Virus record (IMG/VR): IMGVR_UViG_3300014205_000183 | Reading direction: 5' to 3' (one strand) | DNA length: 64,000 nt | Origin: a virus | Lineage: Duplodnaviria > Caudoviricetes | Part shown: positions 7,433 to 37,532 of the stretch, piece after piece | How the letters are laid out: each line of letters opens with the position of its first letter | Position numbering within the stretch: position 1 is the stretch's first letter | Program-made: the position numbers and the translations under genes | The notes under the pieces: model-generated | What the model was told of the DNA's origin: nothing | Seen by the model: the letters and a program-made list of their open reading frames with translations, nothing else | The model's database searches: none

Positions 7433-8235
7433 GGCCTCCTTATATCTACTAATATCCAACCTGAGATTGGGTGTAAAGTTAACAGTTCATTCATCGCTCT
7501 ACGTACAACAGTCGAAGCCTTCATTAACCCTGCTGGCACCTGCAAACCTCTCTCGTCACGTATCTCTGAATATACTACATAATCTCCCATGAAGATCCCC
7601 CTATCATCTCGGACTTCAAGAAGTTGAACATCATCTACATGGTAAACCACTTCAAAAAAGGCTAAAAAATCAAGGCAGTCATAAGCATAATAGCCGAGGT
7701 CGGACGTGTATATGACTTGAGGAACCTCATGTGACAGCTCTATAGCTTTGGCCAACGGTTCGGAAGCATCCACATTATAAACCTCTTTAGCTATCCGCAC
7801 AAATATATCCCTAACTGCATCATTATTATTATCTAGCATGTTGGCAATTGTGTGCTGTAATGCCTGTGACTTTTCCAGTGCTAATGCACTGACATACATA
7901 CATGCTCCAGCATCCAGGTCTGCTATATTAAGATGCTGATTACCAACATCTTTAAAAATCAATGCAGAAGGATGTTCCGTAATAAATTGAGCAATCTCTA
8001 ATCGGTCAGTACCCATACTCATTGCCATAACAGGGATGCCATTCGCAGCTGTGCGAGGATTCCCCGGATAATAGTAAGTATTACATTCTCCCACCTTACT
8101 TCCGACAACCACTCCTAGGTATCCTTCAGATATACGATCGAATAATGGTAATGCCTGAAAATTCTCAAGGTTTTCCTTACAGATAGCAATAACCCTGTCT
8201 AGGGCTTGGTCTTTAGTTTCTAAAAATGTCTCCAT
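7429..8235 (-). CDS. Hypothetical protein
   Basis: 268-aa coupled ORF. Confidence 0.65.
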   Translation of the reverse strand: METFLETKDQALDRVIAICKENLENFQALPLFDRISEGYLGVVVGSKVGECNTYYYPGNPRTAANGIPVMAMSMGTDRLEIAQFITEHPSALIFKDVGNQHLNIADLDAGACMYVSALALEKSQALQHTIANMLDNNNDAVRDIFVRIAKEVYNVDASEPLAKAIELSHEVPQVIYTSDLGYYAYDCLDFLAFFEVVYHVDDVQLLEVRDDRGIFMGDYVVYSEIRDERGLQVPAGLMKASTVVRRAMNELLTLHPISGWILVDIRRP

Positions 8236-8930
8236 TAAAAATCTCCTGAATTTAGTATTTTTAAACCATATTTTATAAGTTGCGCTAACACAGCATTAAA
8301 ATCCCAAACATTATCCTCCAAATTTTGAGTAGGATTAATTATTGCTCTGAGATCCGCCTTCTCAAGCACCACTTTGGCATCTTTCTTGGTATACCCTAAT
8401 TTTATAAGCGCCAATACAGCAGTATTTACAGTCTCATTTATTTTATCCTTTACCTCTTGTGATATTTGGGAGGGATGTGACATGTTTCTAATCTGAATAG
8501 CATTTAAAGTTCCCATATCCCTGGTGGTGCTGTATTTGGGAGCATATTTCTTCTGTAGGTCAAGTACTAATTTATCAGCAGATTTACGACCAATACCCTG
8601 AGCCTCAGCCAGTAGTTCAGCACTCCCATCTGCCAAGTACATCATTATCTTCTCCGGCTCCATAGAAGACATTACTTTTATAGCCTTAGAAGGTCCTATG
8701 TTATCTACTGATATGAAGTCAATAAATAATTGCTTTGCATCTGGGGTGTCAAACCCGTATAGTCTCTGTCCTCGCTCATGCATATGGTGGTGTATATAAA
8801 ACTGGTATGGCTTATCTTCAATAACCTGGTCTGCCATGGGAGTTTCAATCTCGTAACAAACATCATTAACCCAAGCTGTAGCTATGTGGTTAACAACAGT
8901 TACTGATTTTGCTATAAGCCCTGCAATCAT
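8235..8930 (-). CDS. ruvA: Holliday junction branch migration protein RuvA
   Basis: MIAGLI N-terminus, LYGF, HhH motifs NIGPSKA and GIGRKSA, C-terminal ALIKLGY. Confidence 0.9.
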   Translation of the reverse strand: MIAGLIAKSVTVVNHIATAWVNDVCYEIETPMADQVIEDKPYQFYIHHHMHERGQRLYGFDTPDAKQLFIDFISVDNIGPSKAIKVMSSMEPEKIMMYLADGSAELLAEAQGIGRKSADKLVLDLQKKYAPKYSTTRDMGTLNAIQIRNMSHPSQISQEVKDKINETVNTAVLALIKLGYTKKDAKVVLEKADLRAIINPTQNLEDNVWDFNAVLAQLIKYGLKILNSGDF

Positions 8931-23333: not shown

Positions 23334-24558
23334 TTAGCTAACTCTCCTGCCTTCCATGAATCTATAAGCCGGATTGTTAAAGACATAAGTGCTGCATGTC
23401 GCTCTAGCTGGGCATCCTGTTCTTCTTTAATTCTACTCAATATCCACTGCGATACCTCTTGAAGGTCAGATGGGGTTATATGTGGATTGGGATTTTTTAT
23501 CAACCCAATGATAGGGTTAACCACCCCATGGACTGGCGTTAGCTTCAACGCTTCCAGACGGTCCCACAGCTGCATCCTAGTAAGTATATAGGTTTCAATG
23601 TGCGGTGCCGGGGTCTCGGCTTGCTCAGGTAGTATAGCCGGATAACCTGGCTCTTCCGGTTTATTAGCACAATTACACTCCTCAAGCGGCTCATGCCAAT
23701 TACCATAAGCACAAAGACGTGAATCATTGTACTGCGAATATTGCCTATATTGCCTGGCCGTATCTAATATATCCTGCAACTCTTTTTGAGTCTTCTTACG
23801 CATCTGTGCTCCTTATAAATTACATCAGTCCGCCAGGCTTATCAGGTTTCCCCGGATGTCGTTCTTCCCTAATAGTATGTTTAGCTATTGAACTTAATGT
23901 TCCACCAAATACGTTGGCCAACACCCGTAATTCCTCACCATATGTCAACTCTTTACAAGCCTCTATTAATACCCCTTTGATTTTAAACTCTGCTTCCTGT
24001 ACCAAAGATTCTCGATCGTGAATTCGAGGTAGATCACCAAACGCCATTGTCCCCTCCTCTTTCCTATCAGGTATGTATCTTTGTTTTGCAAGCTAAAACA
24101 TTCTCCAATTCGGAGATGATTGTTTCCGCTCTACGCAGCCTCTTTAGTAACAGCATAAATGAGGCAGAATGTTTAATTTTGTGAAAATTAACCTGATGAA
24201 AATGCTCAATTTCTTTTAATGTACCCTGCTGTATTATTTTTTCATACTCTCGCTGGTCAACTAAGTATCTTTCGGCAGATGTGGGATTAGGAATAACACC
24301 CAGACCTTCACAACGTTCACAAGGCATGCCGTGAGATACATGCGGTTGATCCCCTGTTCCTCTGCACGATGGACATGTTTTTAGTTGTGTTTCAGAATCT
24401 GTGTCTTTTACTTCCATAGAGACTGCACCCAGAAAACCAAAACCCTTTACCGCAGCATCAAACTGTGCTTCTGTTATTTGAACCAAATCAGGTGATGTGT
24501 CAGATAATTGTGCAGTCATAGTTCTTCCCGAGGGGGTTATCAAATTTACTTGCTTCAT
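23330..24558 (-). CDS. Three hypothetical ORFs (23330-23803, 23820-24047, 24067-24558 with DnaJ-like CxxCxGxG repeats)
   Basis: ORF track; RBSs; CPSCRGTG and CERCEGLG. Confidence 0.6.
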
Positions 24559-24971: not shown

Positions 24972-25151
24972 TTAGTCTATCCGTGTGAATGCGTCAACAA
25001 TATGTGCATCCCTCTCATCGTCATAAGATATCGTGTCATGTAAAGAGGCACGTTCATTTCTCCCACCTGCATCATACCCTGCACTAAACGCAGCCTCCAG
25101 CATAGCTTTTAATTTACTCTCTTCTATTGTGTGTAATTTGGTGGCCGACAT
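24972..25151 (-). CDS. 59-aa hypothetical protein (below ORF-track cutoff)
   Basis: GGAGG RBS; ATG at 25151; TTGACT promoter at 25205. Confidence 0.55.
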   Translation of the reverse strand: MSATKLHTIEESKLKAMLEAAFSAGYDAGGRNERASLHDTISYDDERDAHIVDAFTRID

Positions 25152-25220
25152 AATAACCTCCCGTTAAACAGTTATTAAAATAAATACTGTAATAATGAAA
25201 GTCAACAAAAAAATAAAATA

Positions 25221-25466
25221 TTATTGTAATAGCCCTTTAGCTACTGCATTGTGCACTTCATATGTCCAAGCAATGGCTGCATCCTCAAACTTATTAAAGG
25301 CAGCCTTTCTAACTTCTATAGCTCTGTGAACTGCTGCGTAACATTGTTGCAATTCAGCATCTGTAACAGTGTGTATATTTTGAACAATGCCTTGAGGACT
25401 GCCGCCTATATCACCAAATATAGCACGCCCTTTATTAAATAACTCCTCGAATATCTTATCATTCAT
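25221..25466 (-). CDS. Hypothetical protein
   Basis: ORF with AAGGA RBS. Confidence 0.55.
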   Translation of the reverse strand: MNDKIFEELFNKGRAIFGDIGGSPQGIVQNIHTVTDAELQQCYAAVHRAIEVRKAAFNKFEDAAIAWTYEVHNAVAKGLLQ

Positions 25467-25492
25467 CGCGTGTATCCTTTGATTAGATTCAA

Positions 25493-25522
25493 TAAAAAAC
25501 CCCAACCAAGTATGGCTGGGGT
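25493..25522 (-). terminator. Intrinsic terminator after the Ro60 gene
   Basis: AACCCCAGCCA/TGGTTGGGGTT hairpin plus U tract. Confidence 0.75.
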
Positions 25523-25533
25523 TGTGTTACTTC

Positions 25534-26997
25534 TTATCTGAGATTTTCAACCTCTCTAATATAAGACAAGATACCCTCGCTGAAGCCGCTGATATGGTTC
25601 CAAGTTCCCCTAGGACCTACACCGTGCTCTGCTGAAGCCACGTTAACCATGTAAGCCAGCGGCGTTCTGGCGTTTGGAACTGATGTCCTGGACTGCTCAT
25701 CGGTGAACACTATAAGCCGGTCATAATCCTTCTTCTCTGCTGCGGATACTGCATAGGCGATGTCAGTGCCACCACCGAATACAGCGCCTGCCAAGGCATC
25801 CCGCAAAGCGAATCCTTTGCGTGGTGGCAACAGCAGTAACTCACCCCTATTGCCAAAGCTGTAAATATCTACATCATCACAAACCCATCGCAACACCATG
25901 GCCAACCCGAAGGCAGCCTCGTATCGCATAAGTTCTGACTTATCAGATAGAGGGTCTTTCATCGAACCACTAGTATCTACCAGCAACGCTGTACGACCAG
26001 CCAATTTAACCTGGCTTAATATAGACTTCTCCATAACGGCCTCTAACTCTGGCTCAAAAGCCGGCGCATGCTTGGCTGCGGCGATGAATCTGAATGGCAA
26101 TATCTTGCTAGTCTTCATAGCAAGCAACGCCTCCTTTATTAACGCCCGGTCAACACCTGCCTGCTCCATGTTACGCAAGTTGCGTAACAAGGCCATCCCA
26201 CCAAGCAGCTCCTCCTTTATCAGGCGAGTGAAGGTCTTCTTCTTATCTGCACCTGCACTTAAAGCGGTCTCCCAGGTATCTGGGATAGGTAATACAGCCT
26301 CCTCATAGTTGGTGCATGGCTCACCTGGCTTACGCCGCTTTACTGGCTTCTTAGCCTTCTTGCGAGCCTGTTCAGCCTTCTTTATAGCTGCTGGAGAGGC
26401 ATGGTCGTCACACTTACACCAACAATGCTTACAGAAGTTACCACTAAGGGTCTTGAACAGTCTGTCCTGCTCCTTATCAACTGCCTTTGGTCTAGCCAAA
26501 AACAACACGTCACGCAACTTCACAGCTGCATTGTTGAAGTCCCACTTAGACAGACGCTCAAGATCAAACTTACCGAGACCGGCAGCCAATCCTCGCTTAA
26601 GCTGCTTGGATAGCATCTTGCGGTCACCGTTTACTGACCAGTAAAGGCTTACCAACTCGCCCAGCTCATCTGGGCGCTGAATCACAGCCTCTGCGGTCTT
26701 GGCCACAAACTCAGGATGAAACTTGCACATAGCAACGACAATCATGAGTGGGGCATGCCGCATATGCCACTTTGACCGAACCTCTATAGCCCAATCACTG
26801 GCAAACTGACCAGACACCTTGGCCACTGCATCATATATAGCAGTCTTTATGGTCTTACCATCTACATAGAACTGATCCTCTCCCAGGAAGCAACAGGCAG
26901 TTAGCCGTTGTAGTAGCTGCTCTGGAGTATTTCTGATAGCTACCGCACCCTCGTGGGTGTGTGGAGCTGGGGTTACGATTTTACGATTTGACTTCAT
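25534..26997 (-). CDS. rsr: Ro60/TROVE-domain RNA-binding protein with C-terminal vWA domain
   Basis: THEG, QRPDE, PDTWETALS, MALLRNLRNM, PFRF, VDTSGSM MIDAS, GGGTD, FTDEQ. Confidence 0.93.
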   Translation of the reverse strand: MKSNRKIVTPAPHTHEGAVAIRNTPEQLLQRLTACCFLGEDQFYVDGKTIKTAIYDAVAKVSGQFASDWAIEVRSKWHMRHAPLMIVVAMCKFHPEFVAKTAEAVIQRPDELGELVSLYWSVNGDRKMLSKQLKRGLAAGLGKFDLERLSKWDFNNAAVKLRDVLFLARPKAVDKEQDRLFKTLSGNFCKHCWCKCDDHASPAAIKKAEQARKKAKKPVKRRKPGEPCTNYEEAVLPIPDTWETALSAGADKKKTFTRLIKEELLGGMALLRNLRNMEQAGVDRALIKEALLAMKTSKILPFRFIAAAKHAPAFEPELEAVMEKSILSQVKLAGRTALLVDTSGSMKDPLSDKSELMRYEAAFGLAMVLRWVCDDVDIYSFGNRGELLLLPPRKGFALRDALAGAVFGGGTDIAYAVSAAEKKDYDRLIVFTDEQSRTSVPNARTPLAYMVNVASAEHGVGPRGTWNHISGFSEGILSYIREVENLR

Positions 26998-27245
26998 TGG
27001 ATATCCTTTCTTTTATATGAAACAATTCTTTCAAGAGGTTTCTCATCCTCATTAGCGGCTCTAATCGCAGCTGTACACACATATTGACAATGATACATAT
27101 GTACAGAAGCAGTGTCATACAACTCAGCAAATCCGTCTACTGTGCTAGCTAGGGCGTGTTCTGTTATATCTTTGGGTATATGTACTAATCTACGTTCTAA
27201 CTCGTTGTCTGCATTCACTAATAGAATTGTACCTTCGATAGCCAT
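26994..27245 (-). CDS. Small hypothetical protein coupled to Ro60
   Basis: AGGAGG RBS before ATG 27245; ATGA overlap with the Ro60 start. Confidence 0.6.
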   Translation of the reverse strand: MAIEGTILLVNADNELERRLVHIPKDITEHALASTVDGFAELYDTASVHMYHCQYVCTAAIRAANEDEKPLERIVSYKRKDIQ

Positions 27246-27270
27246 TACATACCTCCTGTTAAGTACAAAT

Positions 27271-27300
27271 AAAAAAGCCACGGACAATATGTTCGTGGCT
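27271..27300 (-). terminator. Intrinsic terminator between the Y RNAs and the Ro60 operon
   Basis: AGCCACGAACA/TGTCCGTGGCT plus U6. Confidence 0.7.
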
Positions 27301-27315
27301 AGATTTATAAAGTAT

Positions 27316-27447
27316 TGCGGGTAACGCATGAAACGAGCTTTTTTTGACGGTTGCTCTGCCAACTGAGCTACAGCAGCCTAAGCCGCTGATGGGACTCGAA
27401 CCCATGACCTACTGTGTGGTTGAAGTATTCGTCTCTCCAACACCGCA
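27316..27447 (-). ncRNA. yrlA: YrlA-type Y RNA 1
   Basis: Paired termini, UACUUC motif, T arm (GGUUCGAGUCC) preceding D arm (GUAGCUCAGUUGGCAGAGC); adjacent to Ro60. Confidence 0.85.
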
Positions 27448-27455
27448 AATTATAA

Positions 27456-27541
27456 ATCCGGGAACGTTCGACTGCCGTTAGTGGGTTACCCCACGGTCAT
27501 ACCAAAAAAGAATGAAGTAACGGATGTCTATCACCACGGAT
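27456..27541 (-). ncRNA. Short Y RNA 2 (no tRNA-like module)
   Basis: Same terminal motifs CGUGGUGAUAG..UACUUC / CGUUCCCGG. Confidence 0.75.
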
Positions 27542-27557
27542 CATTTTTCTTATTAAT

Positions 27558-27671
27558 AAGTCGGGAACGGGCACTGCACGTTAGCCCTTACCAAATAGGG
27601 CGAGGCATCTGGCGTTAACCAGGTGCACTGGGATTTGAACCTAGAAGTAGGTGCAATAATCACCACGACTT
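27558..27671 (-). ncRNA. Y RNA 3 (divergent tRNA-like module)
   Basis: Same terminal motifs; GGUUCAAAUCC T arm. Confidence 0.75.
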
Positions 27672-28444
27672 GAATATGTGAAAGAACAAATAGACCAATT
27701 TATAAACCCAGTTAGAGGAAAAATAGAGGTAAAAAATAACCCCTACCGTGGCTGTTGCCAGTACCGCCCTCCAACCAAGCAATTTTTAAGAGTAGCTTGA
27801 GTGTCGGTACCGGTACTAATGATCTGTCCATATGAACAAACCCGTTCTCAGCCCTTGTTCTCTCACTACTCAACGTTTAAGGTTACCTTGATAATATTAG
27901 CTAACATTAATGTGGCCACAAAGAACGTCGAATACCAGGTACTGGTTATGAGCCAGCAGTCCAATATCACCTTTAAGACCTTCTTGCTACCAAAATATTA
28001 TCAAAGAACCAGTTTCTGTGTTCACGGGAGTGTCAGGCATCATCAGTGCAGGATTGAGAGCTACCCGGGCAGAATCGATTCTACTTGACCGGACAATCCT
28101 AACTGCACCCAACACAAGAAACTCCCGAGAACACACAATCAATTTGGAGCCAGACGCCCCCGGTTGATTAGACCGAAGGTTTGCTACGGAATCACCCGTA
28201 TGCTGGCAAGTTTTTACCTCTCTTCGTATCTCTACAGGCAGGAGGAGATCCCGGGAGCTGTTTTACCAGCCGCCACCCACCACCGTATTTTGTTAAATAC
28301 GGAAAATATTTCTCGTCGTAAGAATAAAGAGGCTTGTGGCCCCGCCTGGTCCCCGGCCTTACAACGAAATTTTAAAGGGGGTATATCCTTATCTTTTAGG
28401 GATAAGTGCCCTCGGGTGGAGTCTATATACCCTTTAATTTATAA

Positions 28445-28579
28445 TGCCGGTAACGTGCGAAACACTGACGTGTGCGCTCTACCACTGAGCTACGTTCGGC
28501 ATGAATGGGCCAAACGACAGGATTCGAACCTGTGACCTCACCCTCCAAAAGGGAAGTAAGTGTATCTATCAACACGGCA
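28445..28579 (-). ncRNA. yrlA: YrlA-type Y RNA 4
   Basis: GCCGUGUUGAUAG..UACUUC, T arm GGUUCGAAUCC, then D arm GUAGCUCAGUGGUAGAGC, CGUUACCGGC. Confidence 0.85.
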
Positions 28580-28615
28580 AATTTTATATCAAAGAACAAG
28601 CTAATCTACAAACCT

Positions 28616-28738
28616 CAGCAGAAGTGGGAGTCGAACCCACAGAACCCAGAGAGATAACAGACTCTCTAAGTAACCTCTTTTCGCTTGCCGTTATCGCAGC
28701 TACTCGAAAGCGCGGCTGCCAATTTTCGCCATTCTGCT
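28616..28738 (-). ncRNA. tRNA-like RNA with an expanded anticodon/variable region
   Basis: AGCAGAA/UUCUGCU acceptor, D arm, GUGGG-UUCGACU-CCCAC T arm; no 7-nt anticodon loop. Confidence 0.65.
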
Positions 28739-29639
28739 GATTTCTTTTTAACGATCATAGAGGGGCATGGTCAGCACGGAGGTTTATAAGCCCCTCACCG
28801 CTGAGTATTTAATTCAGCTTCAACCAACTATGCTTGTCCTCTACAATCTACATGTCAAAGTCATGGGTCAGAATTTAGTCAAAAACTTAACCTAAACCCT
28901 AAGTCTCTGCTTCTGTTTGGACTGGCTACCGTCCATGCAAATATGGCGCCCCTACAATAGAGTGACTATTCACAACACTTGCCCTAATGCCTTGCAGTTA
29001 CCCCGGGTGCGGCACCTACTCTAGTGTCATTGCAGCATCTCTTCGCTGCGTAGAGGACTTTTAATAAGTGCTACTAGATCCGGTTGTTGGAGCTGCATTA
29101 GCGCCTAGAGAGGATGTGTTCGCACGGTTTAAAGATTCTCACAAGGTTGGGCAGGTAGTGTCTCCTGCTCTGACTGGTCAAGCCTCTTTATTCTCGGCCC
29201 TTCCCACGTAACCAACGGGTGAGCTTCCGAGTTCATCAACGTGTTTCAACGCTGCACCAACCCTGTCAGAATCCTTAACTCTTTTACAAGTGAGGTTGGC
29301 TAACACGCACTTGTGTCCGAGTTGTTTACCGAGTTCGCTCGGTGGTCCACGGGCAACCCTGCGTTGCTCCTCACTTATTTTTTAAGGGTGTCCTGAACTT
29401 TAGACGAACTGCGTCAAGCAAGCCGGATCGTGACCCCGGATTTCCCTAAGTTTGAAGACACAGCCAAGGGTCGCGCCCTTCTCGACGGTCTCTCACCGCA
29501 AGCCATGCCAAATTTATAAACCAACAGGAGATATATCCATAAGGATATAACAAAGTTACTGGAGCAATTACGCTTCATCACAACGGTAGCGACCTTACGG
29601 TGCGCCCATCCTGTTGATAATTTATTTCAAAGAACAAAA

Positions 29640-29838
29640 ATCATATATCGATGGAGTCGAACCACCTAGTCTGCCTACTTACATTTACCTACCGGATTTT
29701 CATGTCCGTTCCAGTGTAGGCCGTGCACCAGTTGTTTAGACCGCACACGTACAGGATTTGAACCCGCAATAAATGTGTGCTTCAACAGCATTTGCAGCTT
29801 ACGAGGCTACTGCGTTCACCATGACGCCCCACATATGA
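29640..29838 (-). ncRNA. ~200-nt tRNA-like RNA (anticodon CGU, very large variable region)
   Basis: UCAUAUG/UAUAUGA termini, D arm, GUAGC-CUCGUAA-GCUGC arm, two T-loop hairpins. Confidence 0.6.
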
Positions 29839-29867
29839 TTTTAAAAGAACATTTTAATTTCCTAAAT

Positions 29868-29896
29868 AACATAAACTATTAAAAATTAAAAGTCAA
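29868..29896 (-). promoter_or_regulatory. Promoter for the ncRNA island/Ro60 unit
   Basis: TTGACT-17-TATGTT with the shared upstream T tract; boxA-like site just downstream. Confidence 0.7.
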
Positions 29897-30035
29897 CATA
29901 AAAATAAAAAAAAATTATCACACTCGGTACGATTATTCTTTACATCTCATTTTTAACACTATATATTAGCAGCATCATCGACCAACGGAGTTTAACCATT
30001 TTGATATCTACTCCGTATATCAAGAAAGGACATGT

Positions 30036-30740
30036 ATGATGCATTCAAATTCTTTTGTCTTAGCTGTCAAGTCGGCGGACAACAAAATCCTTCGTGAAAT
30101 CGGAGGACAGGTTTTCCTCACATTCAATTCAGAGTATTCTCTCCTGCTGAAGAACCTTAACAATGTAAAAAGCTGTTGCACAGTTAGCATTGACGGAACG
30201 GATGTTCTAGGTGGTCACGAGTTGATCGTCGAAGCACATTCCAGTATTGACCTAGAGAGATTTGTGGTAGATGGCAACTTTGGAAGTGGTCGCCGCTTCA
30301 AATTTGTACCACTTACGGACTCTAAGGTACAAGACCCCTCTTCTGCTGAAAATGGTATCGTGGAAGTGCGGTTCTGGAAAGAGAAAGTTATTCAACCTAT
30401 CTTCATAGGGAGTAACTCTCTTCTTCGATCAAGCGGGGTGATCCATCCTAACTCCAGCAGTTGCTTCTATTCAGCTCCTATAGGTACTGCCTGCTGTGAT
30501 AGTATGGCTACTCCAGCGGCTGCGGGGGCTACTGTAGAAGGTGCATATAGCAATCAGCAGTTTGGCAGCGGATACTTCGGAGAAAAAGACGGGGCACCCA
30601 CCGTGCTGCGGCTTAAGTTGGTTGGTCAGGTAGATAAACCACTAACAGTAGAAGCTACTAAAAATAAACACTGCACTAACTGTGGCCGAAAAGCCAAGTT
30701 CAATGATTATTTCTGTGGTGGCTGCGGTAAAGCTCTATAA
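30036..30740 (+). CDS. Hypothetical protein with C-terminal Zn ribbon
   Basis: AAGGA RBS; CTNC..CGGC. Confidence 0.75.
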   Translation: MMHSNSFVLAVKSADNKILREIGGQVFLTFNSEYSLLLKNLNNVKSCCTVSIDGTDVLGGHELIVEAHSSIDLERFVVDGNFGSGRRFKFVPLTDSKVQDPSSAENGIVEVRFWKEKVIQPIFIGSNSLLRSSGVIHPNSSSCFYSAPIGTACCDSMATPAAAGATVEGAYSNQQFGSGYFGEKDGAPTVLRLKLVGQVDKPLTVEATKNKHCTNCGRKAKFNDYFCGGCGKAL

Positions 30741-30763
30741 GATCCAGTTACTCGGTCGATGAC

Positions 30764-30795
30764 AGCCCGGCTTCCATGGTGGAGGCCGGGTTTTT
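30764..30795. terminator. Terminator hairpin between the convergent CDS and tRNA array
   Basis: CCCGGCTTCCA/TGGAGGCCGGG, U tract on + strand. Confidence 0.75.
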
Positions 30796-30802
30796 AATTT
30801 AA

Positions 30803-30925
30803 TGCCGGTAACGTGCGTTTTCGGATGTTTTTTGTTTTACCATTAAACTACACCTTACGGCGTCGGGATTCGAACCCGAATCTTTCTTTAGACAGAAGAA
30901 GTATCCGATAACTATCAACACGGCA
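30803..30925 (-). ncRNA. yrlA: YrlA-type Y RNA 5 (last RNA of the tRNA array)
   Basis: Termini identical to Y RNA 4; T arm then D arm. Confidence 0.82.
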
Positions 30926-30929
30926 ATTT

Positions 30930-31018
30930 TGGCGGATGAAGTGAGACTCGAACTCACAACGCCGTCTCTGGCGCTACTGCTTTTCAAGAGCAGCTCCCGT
31001 TCCAGCAGGAACTCATCC
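30930..31018 (-). tRNA. tRNA-Ser(UGA)
   Basis: CUGCU-CUUGAAA-AGCAG; long variable arm; CCA. Confidence 0.85.
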
Positions 31019-31026
31019 ATATATTT

Positions 31027-31103
31027 TGGAGCACCCTCCCGGAATTGCACCGAGGTATTAATCGGGTTGCGACCGACCGCCTTACTGTCTTGGCTAAGAG
31101 TGC
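31027..31103 (-). tRNA. tRNA-Cys(GCA)
   Basis: Loop UCGCAAC; U73; CCA. Confidence 0.85.
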
Positions 31104-31113
31104 ATATAAATTT

Positions 31114-31194
31114 TGGTGCGCTAGGAGGGACTTGCACCCCCACGATTTCTCGGCAGATCCTAAGTCTGCTGCGTCTGCATTCCGCCACAAGCGC
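31114..31194 (-). tRNA. tRNA-Leu(UAG)
   Basis: GCAGA-CUUAGGA-UCUGC; CCA. Confidence 0.9.
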
Positions 31195-31200
31195 ATAATC

Positions 31201-31277
31201 TGGTATCCTCGGTTGGATTCTAACCAACGACATCCTCTTTAGGAAAGAAGAACTCTGAACAGCTGAGCTACGAGGAT
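31201..31277 (-). tRNA. tRNA-Arg(CCU)
   Basis: Loop UUCCUAA; CCA. Confidence 0.85.
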
Positions 31278-31278
31278 A

Positions 31279-31355
31279 TGGTGCTTCGAGTCGGACTTAA
31301 ACCGACGGCATCAGCCTTCGGAAAGCTGCGCTCTATTCATCTGAGCTATCGAAGC
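31279..31355 (-). tRNA. tRNA-Arg(CCG)
   Basis: Loop UUCCGAA; CCA. Confidence 0.88.
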
Positions 31356-31360
31356 CTGTT

Positions 31361-31437
31361 TGGCGTTCATGGAAGGACTTGAACCTTCAGCCTCCTGGTC
31401 CGTAGCCAGGTGCTCTATCCAATTGAGCTACACGAAC
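31361..31437 (-). tRNA. tRNA-Arg(ACG)
   Basis: Loop CUACGGA; CCA. Confidence 0.92.
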
Positions 31438-31443
31438 ATATTT

Positions 31444-31519
31444 TGGCAGGAGAGGCCGGAGTTGAACCGACGACATCCAGCTCCAGAGGCTGGCGTTCTA
31501 CCAACTGAACTACTCTCCA
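31444..31519 (-). tRNA. tRNA-Gln(CUG)
   Basis: Loop CUCUGGA; CCA. Confidence 0.9.
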
Positions 31520-31634: not shown

Positions 31635-32195
31635 TTATGCTTCAAGTTCAACATCCCAATAAACAAAGTCTTTCCAACTCTCGTGCGGCAGGTGCTTAAG
31701 AGCCTGAATCTTCAGGGTTATTTCACGCTCAAGAGAGAGGTCGTACTTCGGCGCCTGGGGTGTGCACCACAAGTGCATTCCAGCTTGTGCCGGCGTTCGG
31801 TTAGCCTTCTTGCCGTTGCAAGCTAAGCAGCAGCATACAAGATTACGCCAATGACTTGTTCCACCCTGGTCACGAGGAACCACGTGGTCCCAGTGCATCT
31901 TCTGGATAGGTAAAAACGTCCGGCAATACTGACAATGCCCCCGGTCACGAATCCACAGATTCTTACGGGACAGCCGCATAACACGGCCACGCTTCTGGAC
32001 ATTGCCCGCAAAGTAAAGCAATCTGATAATAGCTGGGGCTTCCATAGCCTGCTTCCAGGAACGCAGATGCTTATCGGGGTAACTGGCAATGATTTCAGCG
32101 CGACCAGCTTCCACTTTCGTGATAGCATCTTCCCAACTAGCATACATATTCACAGGCGCATAGTTGCGGCTCAACACTAAACAAGTTGTACTCAT
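31635..32195 (-). CDS. HNH endonuclease (McrA-like)
   Basis: RDRGHCQYC, DHVVPRDQGG, WRNLV..C..CN..K; AGGAGG RBS. Confidence 0.92.
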   Translation of the reverse strand: MSTTCLVLSRNYAPVNMYASWEDAITKVEAGRAEIIASYPDKHLRSWKQAMEAPAIIRLLYFAGNVQKRGRVMRLSRKNLWIRDRGHCQYCRTFLPIQKMHWDHVVPRDQGGTSHWRNLVCCCLACNGKKANRTPAQAGMHLWCTPQAPKYDLSLEREITLKIQALKHLPHESWKDFVYWDVELEA

Positions 32196-32956: not shown

Positions 32957-33030
32957 TGGTACCCCTACGCGGTTATGCTCCGCGGTCAGATGGCTGAAAA
33001 CCACCGGTTCTACTATTAAACTATAGGGGC
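32957..33030 (-). tRNA. tRNA-Glu(UUC)
   Basis: Loop UUUUCAG; atypical T loop; CCA. Confidence 0.85.
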
Positions 33031-37521: not shown

Positions 37522-37532
37522 TGTCAAAGATC
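37522..37532 (-). promoter_or_regulatory. boxA-like antitermination site before the first tRNA
   Basis: GATCTTTGACA about 25 nt upstream of tRNA-Val. Confidence 0.6.

What the first reader, a model, noticed from the sequence alone, without database searches (positions are those of the whole stretch)
27690..29620. About 2-kb island of discrete, unassigned structured RNAs
Seen in sequence: no credible ORF. GC-richer units closed by terminal helices are separated by AU-rich spacers like those between the tRNAs: 28018-28134, 28145-28272 (ends UCCA), 28311-28368, 28373-28436, 28758-28843, 28901-29060, 29134-29273, 29288-29376, 29523-29614, and an unresolved 27700-28000. They lie downstream of the 29896 promoter and upstream of Ro60. 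Inference: a polycistronic precursor of roughly ten ncRNAs I cannot assign, possibly decoys or sponges.
Basis: partly seen in the sequence, partly recalled or inferred. Interest (0 to 1): 0.75.

Follow-up and report, generated by a model that had tools for sequence, protein, structure and literature searches.

The report
Orphan structured RNAs in phage Ro60 operon
A large phage carries, just upstream of its Ro60 gene, a 2.6-kb protein-free operon that mixes recognisable Y RNAs and tRNA look-alikes with about eight strongly folded RNA modules matching no known family; it is real non-coding RNA, but whether the modules are separate functional RNAs is still unproven.

Summary
Window 27690-29620 has no credible ORF. 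It is GC-richer than true intergenic DNA and folds far better than shuffles on the minus strand (z -5.15).

It lies inside a minus-strand RNA-only operon. A promoter (29896-29868) and an intrinsic terminator (27300-27268) bracket it, and both are conserved in the only related phage found (Ro60 57% identical). Ro60 follows downstream.

Two elements in the range are assignable: a YrlA-type Y RNA (28445-28580) and a tRNA-shaped RNA (28615-28740).

Two listed units (28145-28272 and 28901-29060) do not hold up.

The number of long closing helices is only marginally above chance (7 against 1-7 in shuffles).

No Rfam family, paralogue or homologue was found. The relative carries different orphan modules in the same bracket.

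Best reading: a polycistronic precursor, read through by five boxA-like antitermination motifs, that yields lineage-specific small RNAs linked to the Ro60/Y RNA system. Their function is unknown.

Other first-stage readers of this scan flagged the same stretch.

The parts
29868..29896 (-). Sigma-70-type promoter of the RNA operon (TTGACT, 17 nt, TATGTT). Lies outside the finding, upstream of it.
   Evidence: A 25-nt block around the -35 element is identical in relative L014.
29842..29850 (-). boxA-like leader motif M1 (GTTCTTTTA), at the same place after the promoter as GCTCTTTCA in L014.
29637..29842 (-). tRNA-like complex TL1. It contains a 95-nt tRNA-like element (29743-29837), a second T-arm at about 29649-29667, and an outer 12-bp helix. 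It lies just outside the finding.
   Evidence: ARAGORN. Rfam tRNA 27.6 bits, below the gathering score of 29. Fold z -2.0. Outer helix probability 0.87-0.89.
29627..29635 (-). boxA-like motif M2 (GTTCTTTGA).
29520..29618 (-).
   Evidence: z -2.3. Closing-helix probability 0.83.
29384..29510 (-). GC-rich stretch with no stable fold of its own.
   Evidence: z +1.0.
29286..29378 (-).
   Evidence: z -3.9 as an MFE domain. Closing-helix probability 0.82.
29129..29278 (-). It carries AGAAUAAAGAGGCUUG, which is complementary to a stretch of U3.
   Evidence: z -4.2 to -4.65. Closing-helix probability 0.90-1.00. Inverted repeat I2.
28901..29060 (-). Not supported as a discrete closed unit.
   Evidence: z -0.3. 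The overlapping MFE domain 28950-29127 has z -0.28 and closing-helix probability 0.01.
28753..28848 (-).
   Evidence: Closing-helix probability 0.99 and 0.88. The fold z is only -1.2.
28615..28740 (-). tRNA-shaped RNA TL2: a 9-bp acceptor-like stem, a canonical T-arm (GGTTCGACTCC) and two long extra arms.
   Evidence: Fold z -3.1. T-loop motif. ARAGORN calls it only at relaxed thresholds.
28589..28597 (-). boxA-like motif M3.
28445..28580 (-). YrlA-type Y RNA inside the finding: Ro-handle stem plus T-arm, acceptor-like hairpin and D-arm.
   Evidence: Rfam YrlA 30.9 bits, E 4.6e-4, below the gathering score of 69. Handle motifs present. Paralogue of the Y RNA at 30807-30925.
28372..28437 (-).
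   Evidence: Closing-helix probability 0.90. z -1.4 on the minus strand and -2.6 on the plus strand.
28311..28369 (-). It holds a terminator-like hairpin plus U-tract, and the 16-mer complementary to U7.
   Evidence: z -3.0. Closing-helix probability 0.70..
28145..28272 (-). Not supported as one closed unit. Its core 28170-28231 folds on its own as a bulged helix containing AUACGAAG.
   Evidence: Whole unit z -1.35 and closing-helix probability 0.00. Core z -3.6.
28017..28135 (-).
   Evidence: z -4.6 to -5.9. Closing-helix probability 0.94-0.97. MFE -49.6 on the minus strand against -35.9 on the plus strand.
28001..28009 (-). boxA-like motif M4. It overlaps the 5' strand of the next module's closing helix.
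27886..28006 (-).
   Evidence: z -4.0. Closing-helix probability 0.93 and 0.88.
27706..27871 (-). Structured but context-dependent stretch. It includes a terminator-like hairpin at 27722-27747.
   Evidence: z -3 to -4 in one sequence context, but closing-helix probability 0.00 with flanks..
27679..27687 (-). boxA-like motif M5, at the low edge of the finding.
27315..27670 (-). Three Y RNAs just outside the finding: 27559-27670, 27455-27542 (no tRNA-like part) and 27315-27448 (YrlA, 45.5 bits).
27268..27300 (-). Intrinsic terminator that closes the RNA operon.
   Evidence: Read directly from the sequence. Its 3' half plus U-tract, 18 nt, is identical in L014.
25534..27245 (-). An 83-aa ORF (26994-27245) followed by the Ro60/Rsr orthologue (25534-26997).
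   Evidence: Pfam TROVE, E 4e-10, plus vWA. Homologues found.

Best explanation
The finding is the middle of a roughly 2.6-kb RNA-only operon on the minus strand of a large phage.

Proposed mechanism:
- Transcription starts at a sigma-70-type promoter (29896-29868).
- RNA polymerase crosses a conserved leader carrying a boxA-like motif. The motif recurs four more times inside the operon. I infer that this recruits rrn-type Nus antitermination, so that polymerase passes more than 25 stable hairpins, some followed by U-tracts.
- Transcription ends at, or leaks through, a conserved terminator (27300-27268) into an 83-aa ORF and the Ro60 gene.

The precursor carries:
- four Y RNAs with a shared Ro-binding handle;
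- two tRNA-shaped RNAs;
- about eight further stem-closed modules of 59-150 nt, joined by short AU-rich linkers.

I infer that host endonucleases cut in the linkers and that RNase P acts at the tRNA-like parts. This would release the modules as small stable RNAs whose closing stems protect their ends.

The modules belong to no known family and are specific to this lineage. Their most likely role is as accessory RNAs of the phage Ro60/Y RNA particle, either as extra partners or as substrates/competitors.

Shown here: the stretch is non-coding, the strand is minus, the promoter-terminator bracket is conserved, Y RNAs are interleaved with the modules, and there is excess folding.

Inferred only: antitermination, processing into discrete RNAs, and any function.
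For: - No ORFs and no recoded ORFs.
- The promoter block and terminator are conserved in L014, although its Ro60 is only 57% identical and its tRNAs about 75-82% identical.
- Five Y RNAs on the same strand share a handle, one of them inside the finding. The handle's inner helix covaries among nine copies in the two phages.
- The exact motif GTTCTTTSA occurs 5 times in the 64-kb window, and 4 of those are in this island on the minus strand. A leader copy sits at the same position in L014.
- Folding z-scores are -5.15 for the whole finding and -4.5 / -5.0 for the blocks lacking Y or tRNA-like parts. The sense strand folds better than the antisense strand.
- MFE-domain z-scores are well below those of shuffles and coding controls.
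- Closing helices of eight modules are as probable as those of the Y RNAs.
- Linkers have GC 0.21 against 0.47 inside domains.
- L014 has its own orphan folded modules between its Y RNAs: 8268-8374 (z -4.4) and 7885-8118 (z -4.05).
- Precedent from PMC4201824: bacterial Y RNAs are made as polycistronic precursors upstream of rsr, together with a tRNA and with further small RNAs that are not Y RNAs.
Against: - No module has a detectable homologue. I searched the relative L014, the rest of the phage record, 50,697 phage records, IMG/VR, JGI metagenomes and GTDB genomes. There is therefore no covariation evidence.
- The count of long-range closing helices is only marginally above shuffles.
- Four modules fold as well or better on the plus strand.
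- There are no expression or end-mapping data.
Confidence: 0.5

Rival explanations
1. The stretch is transcribed spacer or leader. It is co-transcribed with the Y RNAs, but it serves only as processing stems, protective structure or a long regulatory leader for the 83-aa ORF and Ro60. It yields no independent functional RNAs.
For: - The modules are not conserved in the only relative, which has different filler in the same bracket.
- The count of closing helices is near chance.
- Terminator-like hairpins lie inside the island at 28329-28343 and 27722-27747.
- A 16-nt upstream complement could compete with the first of these hairpins. That arrangement resembles attenuator logic.
Against: - About 1.6 kb of spacer is very long for a compact phage genome.
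- Its GC (0.47) is that of the tRNA and Y genes, not of intergenic DNA (0.27).
- Module z-scores of -4 to -6 equal or exceed those of the bona fide Y RNAs.
Confidence: 0.22
2. The stretch encodes one or a few large structured RNAs of 0.5-1 kb, in the manner of GOLLD or ROOL, which sit near tRNA genes in phages. It would not be about ten small RNAs.
For: - A perfect 16-nt complementarity bridges 842 nt (28321-28336 with 29179-29194). By my estimate the chance expectation is about 1e-3.
- Some stretches, such as 29384-29510 and 28901-29127, fold poorly on their own and could pair at long range.
Against: - No Rfam hit to GOLLD, ROOL or any other large RNA, even at E up to 10.
- boxA-like motifs, a Y RNA and a tRNA-like RNA interrupt the stretch.
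- Most of the stable structure is local.
Confidence: 0.1
3. The stretch is decaying or selectively neutral DNA, such as relics of lost genes, tRNAs or Y RNAs. The hairpins would be chance products.
For: - No homologues, no paralogues and no known family.
- Simple helix counts are only about 2 sd above shuffles.
Against: - The region folds much better than shuffles and coding controls.
- GC is above the genome mean in a phage whose intergenic DNA is AT-rich.
- It lies inside a conserved transcription unit and is interleaved with intact Y RNAs.
- No T-loop or handle relics occur in the modules.
- The sequence is identical in an independent 236-kb assembly.
Confidence: 0.1

Closest known systems
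Bacterial rsr (Ro60) loci with polycistronic Y RNAs: D. radiodurans Yrn1/Yrn2 plus further small RNAs and tRNA-Asp; M. smegmatis and S. Typhimurium YrlA/YrlB (Chen et al. 2014, PMC4201824)
   Same: - Non-coding RNAs lie within about 2 kb upstream of Ro60 on the same strand.
- They are made as one precursor.
- They include tRNA-mimic Y RNAs.
- The D. radiodurans locus also holds small RNAs that are not classed as Y RNAs.
   Different: - This operon is far larger: 2.6 kb with about 15-20 elements.
- It is phage-borne.
- It is punctuated by five boxA-like motifs.
- Most of its length consists of modules without a Ro handle, T-arm or D-arm.
Phage YrlA RNAs (Rfam RF02553), reported in 22 phages by Chen et al. 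2014
   Same: The island contains YrlA-type RNAs next to a phage Ro60 gene.
   Different: - The orphan modules give no YrlA hit.
- Even the Y RNAs here score below the family's gathering threshold (45.5 and 30.9 bits against 69).
- They use a lineage-specific handle.
Small stable RNAs of unknown function co-transcribed in the phage T4 tRNA gene cluster (species 1 and 2, also called RNA C and D). Recalled from my own knowledge; not checked in a paper here.
   Same: Non-tRNA structured RNAs sit inside a phage RNA operon and are presumed to be released by the tRNA-processing machinery.
   Different: - T4 has two such RNAs, not eight or more.
- T4 has no Ro60 or Y RNAs.
- No sequence model was available for a test.
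GOLLD and ROOL large RNAs, found near tRNA genes in phages (Rfam families)
   Same: Orphan structured RNA in a phage, next to tRNA arrays.
   Different: - No Rfam match at E up to 10.
- The structure here is mostly local and modular.
rrn-type boxA antitermination leaders. The E. coli boxA GCUCUUUA is recalled from my own knowledge. The Mollicutes 16S-23S spacer sequence GTTCTTTGAAAACTGAAT is a primer in PMC4312986.
   Same: - The GYTCTTT(S)A motif sits just downstream of the promoter in both phages.
- It is repeated inside a highly structured RNA-only operon.
   Different: - There are five copies in 2.6 kb.
- Binding of NusB/NusE is untested.
- One copy is predicted to be sequestered in a module's closing helix.
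Phage Ro60-like proteins with 'handle' RNA arrays, noted earlier in this scan (for example e1-1919706 and e1-5756767)
   Same: Phage Ro60-type protein beside an array of modular small RNAs.
   Different: - Those arrays share one handle (ACAGCAA-type). That motif is absent from this island.
- The orphan modules here share no handle.

Membership tests
YrlA / bacterial Y RNA (RF02553): the orphan modules | Match to the Rfam covariance model at or above the gathering score (69 bits) | tested here: not met
   No module gives any hit. Inside the finding, only 28471-28541 hits, at 30.9 bits.
YrlA / bacterial Y RNA (RF02553): the orphan modules | tRNA-like domain (T-arm, acceptor-like hairpin, D-arm) | tested here: not met
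   Within the finding, T-loop motifs occur only at 28530 (the Y RNA) and 28637 (the tRNA-shaped RNA).
YrlA / bacterial Y RNA (RF02553): the orphan modules | Ro-binding stem or handle: GNCGAAN0-1G, or this lineage's CSGKGKUGR ... GUUMCCSR | tested here: not met
   The 3' handle motif occurs exactly five times, once in each of the five Y RNAs. The only look-alikes are weak: CGGUGGUGG at 28285 and AUACGAAG in 28170-28231.
YrlA / bacterial Y RNA (RF02553): the orphan modules | Encoded near Ro60 on the same strand | tested here: met
   The modules lie 0.45-2.4 kb upstream of the 83-aa ORF and Ro60 genes, on the minus strand.
YrlA (RF02553): element 28445-28580 | Handle stem plus T-arm, acceptor-like hairpin and D-arm, near Ro60 | tested here: inconclusive
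   All features can be read in the sequence. The CM score of 30.9 bits is below the gathering score.
tRNA (RF00005): element 28615-28740 | Cloverleaf scoring at or above 29 bits, or a standard ARAGORN call | tested here: not met
   It has only an acceptor-like stem and a T-arm. ARAGORN calls it only at relaxed thresholds and with an 'intron'.
Known structured RNAs (GOLLD, ROOL, 6S, SRP, RNase P, group I/II introns, small ribozymes, riboswitches) | Match to any of the 4227 Rfam 15 models | tested here: not met
   with permissive filters and E up to 10. The only matches were YrlA, tRNA and three weak chance-level matches outside the finding.
Polycistronic RNA operon | One promoter and one terminator bracket the RNAs on one strand | tested here: met
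   Both signals are conserved in L014. Transcription itself was not tested.
Discrete processed small RNAs | Defined 5' and 3' ends, and stable accumulation | not testable with these tools
Conserved structured RNA family | Compensatory base changes across homologues | not testable with these tools
   No homologues were found. All copies of L014 are nearly identical to one another.
rrn-type boxA element | GCUCUUUA-like motif in the transcribed leader, bound by NusB/NusE | tested here: inconclusive
   Motif, position and clustering fit. Binding and antitermination cannot be tested here.

The most novel reading that the evidence does not exclude
The island encodes eight or more previously undescribed small RNA families. 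They are co-expressed with a phage Ro60 and its Y RNAs and work with or alongside that particle, for example as interchangeable adaptor, substrate or decoy RNAs. Their complete turnover between two related phages, inside a conserved promoter-terminator bracket, would point to fast, conflict-driven evolution of a viral RNA toolkit.
Probability: 0.3. Interest if true: 0.75.

Novelty: new variant of a known kind. Interest (0 to 1): 0.5.

Why it matters
Ro60/Y RNA particles are conserved from bacteria to humans, yet their roles in bacteria and phages are poorly understood.

This phage devotes 2.6 kb to an RNA-only operon placed in front of its Ro60 gene. The operon mixes Y RNAs, tRNA mimics and many orphan folded modules.

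It would give a compact, testable system for three questions:
- which RNAs a viral Ro60 binds;
- how such precursors are transcribed through dense structure (repeated boxA-like signals);
- how such precursors are then processed into separate RNAs.

If the modules are real RNAs, they add several new viral RNA families. If they are not, the locus still shows how much structured 'filler' can ride in such operons.

Tried and rejected
Homologue and similarity searches that found nothing
- blastn of the island against 50,697 phage records: no match.
- Ro60-anchored scans of IMG/VR, JGI metagenomes and GTDB genomes gave only one related lineage, at 57% identity. A search of 5.8 billion proteins found nothing above 61%.
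- nhmmer of 15 island segments against the relatives and the rest of the phage record: nothing below E 0.49.
- A covariance model of module U1 found no homologue, even with filters off.
- A two-sequence structural alignment of U9 with L014 8268-8374 was unconvincing.

IMG/VR pattern scans
- GTGGGGTAACCCAC and the 16-mer returned only chance hits.
- Scans with the two flanking proteins found nothing.

Hypotheses tested and rejected
- Coding or recoded ORFs.
- Antisense targets within the phage record.
- The ACAGCAA handle seen in other phages.

Analyses that proved uninformative
- A fixed-window z-score scan: known tRNA arrays also score near zero.
- ARAGORN at relaxed thresholds: mostly noise.
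- Analogy with Caulobacter phages: only CcrPW shares the island of CcrColossus.

Full report
CONTEXT

The window is the second half of a 132-kb IMG/VR virus record. The same sequence, identical over 25000-31500, lies in an independent 236-kb ENA contig.

The window carries 36 tRNA genes and a tmRNA. Gene 25534-26997 (minus) is a Ro60/Rsr orthologue with TROVE and vWA domains. An 83-aa ORF precedes it.

THE OBSERVATION

Window 27250-29900 has no credible ORF.
- On the minus strand, the longest ORF with a start codon is 58 aa.
- Stops occur about every 17 codons in all three frames.
- No single stop reassignment opens a long frame.
- The stop-to-stop translations hit nothing credible in Pfam or PHROGs.

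The finding has GC 0.470. The genome is 0.433 and the true intergenic stretch 29863-30035 is 0.266. In an unbiased MFE fold, nucleotides inside folded domains have GC 0.47 and the 91 exterior-loop nucleotides have GC 0.21.

STRAND AND TRANSCRIPTION UNIT

Every recognisable element is on the minus strand.
- A sigma-70-type promoter lies at 29896-29868. An intrinsic terminator lies at 27300-27268.
- Both are conserved in the only related phage found, L014. A 25-nt block around the -35 element is identical, and so are 18 nt of the terminator's 3' half plus U-tract.
- That conservation stands out, because the two Ro60 proteins are only 57% identical and the shared tRNAs about 75-82% identical.
- The RBS and start codon of the 83-aa ORF follow the terminator directly. 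Ro60 expression therefore probably depends on read-through.

WHAT CAN BE ASSIGNED

Rfam at gathering thresholds finds only tRNAs and the tmRNA in the window. A permissive scan of 27200-30000 adds two sub-threshold YrlA hits, at 27327-27435 (45.5 bits) and 28471-28541 (30.9 bits), and a tRNA-like hit at 29743-29837 (27.6 bits). Nothing else is credible; in particular there is no GOLLD, ROOL, 6S, SRP, intron or ribozyme.

A lineage-specific Ro handle marks exactly five Y RNAs. The handle is 5' CSGKGKUGR ... UACUUC and 3' GUUMCCSR. The five Y RNAs are:
- 27315-27448
- 27455-27542
- 27559-27670
- 28445-28580
- 30807-30925

L014 has four Y RNAs with the same handle. The inner helix differs in sequence but stays paired in all nine copies.

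Inside the finding's coordinates there are therefore two assignable elements: the Y RNA at 28445-28580, and a tRNA-shaped RNA at 28615-28740 with a 9-bp acceptor-like stem and a canonical T-arm.

THE ORPHAN MODULES

Fold energies on the minus strand clearly exceed chance.
- The whole finding has z -5.15. The plus strand gives -3.3, the Ro60 CDS -2.7, and a tRNA array plus HNH gene -0.95.
- The two blocks free of Y and tRNA-like elements give z -4.5 and -5.0. Their antisense strands give -1.9 and -3.8.

I also used a like-for-like test that corrects for choosing the boundaries. It scores the z of each exterior domain of the MFE fold.
- The island's 14 domains average -3.24, with 8 below -3.
- Six shuffled islands averaged -0.4 to -1.7, with 0-2 below -3.
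- Two coding regions averaged -1.3, and the Ro60 region -2.4.

The three Y RNAs at the 3' end come out of the same fold as exact domains, which validates the method.

With 80-nt flanks, eight modules have closing helices about as probable as those of the Y RNAs (0.82-0.98):

| Module | Closing-helix probability |
|---|---|
| 29520-29618 | 0.83 |
| 29286-29378 | 0.82 |
| 29129-29278 | 0.90-1.00 |
| 28753-28848 | 0.99 |
| 28372-28437 | 0.90 |
| 28311-28369 | 0.70 |
| 28017-28135 | 0.94 |
| 27886-28006 | 0.93 |

Two cautions apply.
- Simple counts of closing helices are only about 2 sd above shuffles. A window-averaged count gives 7, against 1-7 in shuffles.
- Four modules fold as well or better on the plus strand.

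boxA-LIKE MOTIFS

The exact motif GTTCTTTSA occurs five times in the 64-kb window. Four of those are in this island on the minus strand, at 29635, 28597, 28009 and 27687. A one-mismatch copy at 29850 follows the promoter.

L014 has GCTCTTTCA at the same leader position. That is close to the E. coli rrn boxA (from my own knowledge). GTTCTTTGAAAACTGAAT is a conserved primer site in the Mollicutes 16S-23S spacer (PMC4312986).

I infer rrn-type antitermination. It would explain how polymerase crosses dense structure, including the terminator-like hairpins at 28329-28343 and 27722-27747. This is not shown.

COMPARATIVE EVIDENCE

None could be obtained for the modules. The searches that found no homologue were:
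- phage records;
- IMG/VR;
- JGI metagenomes;
- GTDB genomes;
- 5.8 billion proteins, for closer Ro60 genes;
- nhmmer;
- a covariance model of module 28017-28135.

Absence of a BLAST hit is weak evidence against function. The clearly homologous handle-only Y RNAs of the two phages are also invisible to BLAST.

L014's shorter island, about 850 nt, has its own orphan folded modules between its Y RNAs: 8268-8374 (z -4.4) and 7885-8118 (z -4.05 on the sense strand). Rfam gives no hit for them. So the bracket and the Y RNAs are conserved while the filling turns over.

CcrColossus likewise has a 1.35-kb gene-free stretch in front of its Ro60 gene, shared in full only with CcrPW.

INTERPRETATION

The best reading is a polycistronic RNA precursor, as known for bacterial rsr loci. 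There, Y RNAs are processed from a precursor together with a tRNA, and further small RNAs that are not Y RNAs are encoded nearby (PMC4201824). Here the arrangement is expanded to about 15-20 elements, of which about eight are orphan stem-closed modules.

Their release as discrete RNAs and their function are inferred, not shown.

The 'sponge' idea finds no target in the phage record. The only striking complementarity is internal: a perfect 16-mer between modules 29129-29278 and 28311-28369.

Rival readings remain open: structured spacer or leader, one or a few large RNAs, or neutral DNA.

VERDICT

I class it as a new variant of a known kind of locus. It is interesting but unproven for lack of covariation and expression data.

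Noticed in passing
window 28321-28336 and 29179-29194: A perfect 16-nt complementarity links two modules 842 nt apart. The chance expectation is about 1e-3 by my estimate. The downstream copy overlaps the 3' half and U-tract of a terminator-like hairpin, so pairing would disrupt that hairpin.
   Followed up: partly
window 29850, 29635, 28597, 28009, 27687 (minus strand); L014 about 7773-7787: A boxA-like motif, GTTCTTTSA, is repeated five times in the RNA operon and conserved in the leader of the related phage. A similar GATCTTTGA sits at 37524-37532, just upstream of the first tRNA of the big array.
   Followed up: partly
window 30807-30925 (minus strand), terminator 30764-30792: A fifth, YrlA-type Y RNA closes the long tRNA operon, right after tRNA-Ser(UGA). 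It shares 18-nt and 15-nt exact blocks with the Y RNA at 28445-28580.
   Followed up: partly
window 28245-28292 (minus strand): A short hairpin carries look-alikes of both strands of the Y handle (CGGUGGUGG ... GCUCCCGG). It may be a degenerate or minimal handle.
   Followed up: no
window 28170-28231 (minus strand): A 62-nt element folds as a bulged helix containing AUACGAAG (z -3.6). The motif is one base off the bacterial Ro-binding motif GNCGAAN0-1G.
   Followed up: no
window 25740-25900 and 25420-25540 (minus strand): Strong local folding signals (z about -4 to -4.7) lie inside the Ro60 coding sequence and just downstream of it.
   Followed up: no
window 31641-32195 (minus strand); L014 3851-4411: An HNH endonuclease gene is embedded in the tRNA array at the same position in both phages (63% identity). 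tRNA gene order is largely syntenic between them.
   Followed up: partly
window 32960-33030 (minus strand): Rfam reports a tRNA here (45 bits) that ARAGORN does not call. L014 2727-2811 is similar to it.
   Followed up: no
L014 16139-16903: The related phage encodes an Apyc1-type (anti-Pycsar) metallo-beta-lactamase-fold protein a few kb from its Ro60 gene.
   Followed up: no
window 24067-24558 (minus strand): A 163-aa protein gives a weak, sub-threshold Anti-TRAP match downstream of Ro60.
   Followed up: no
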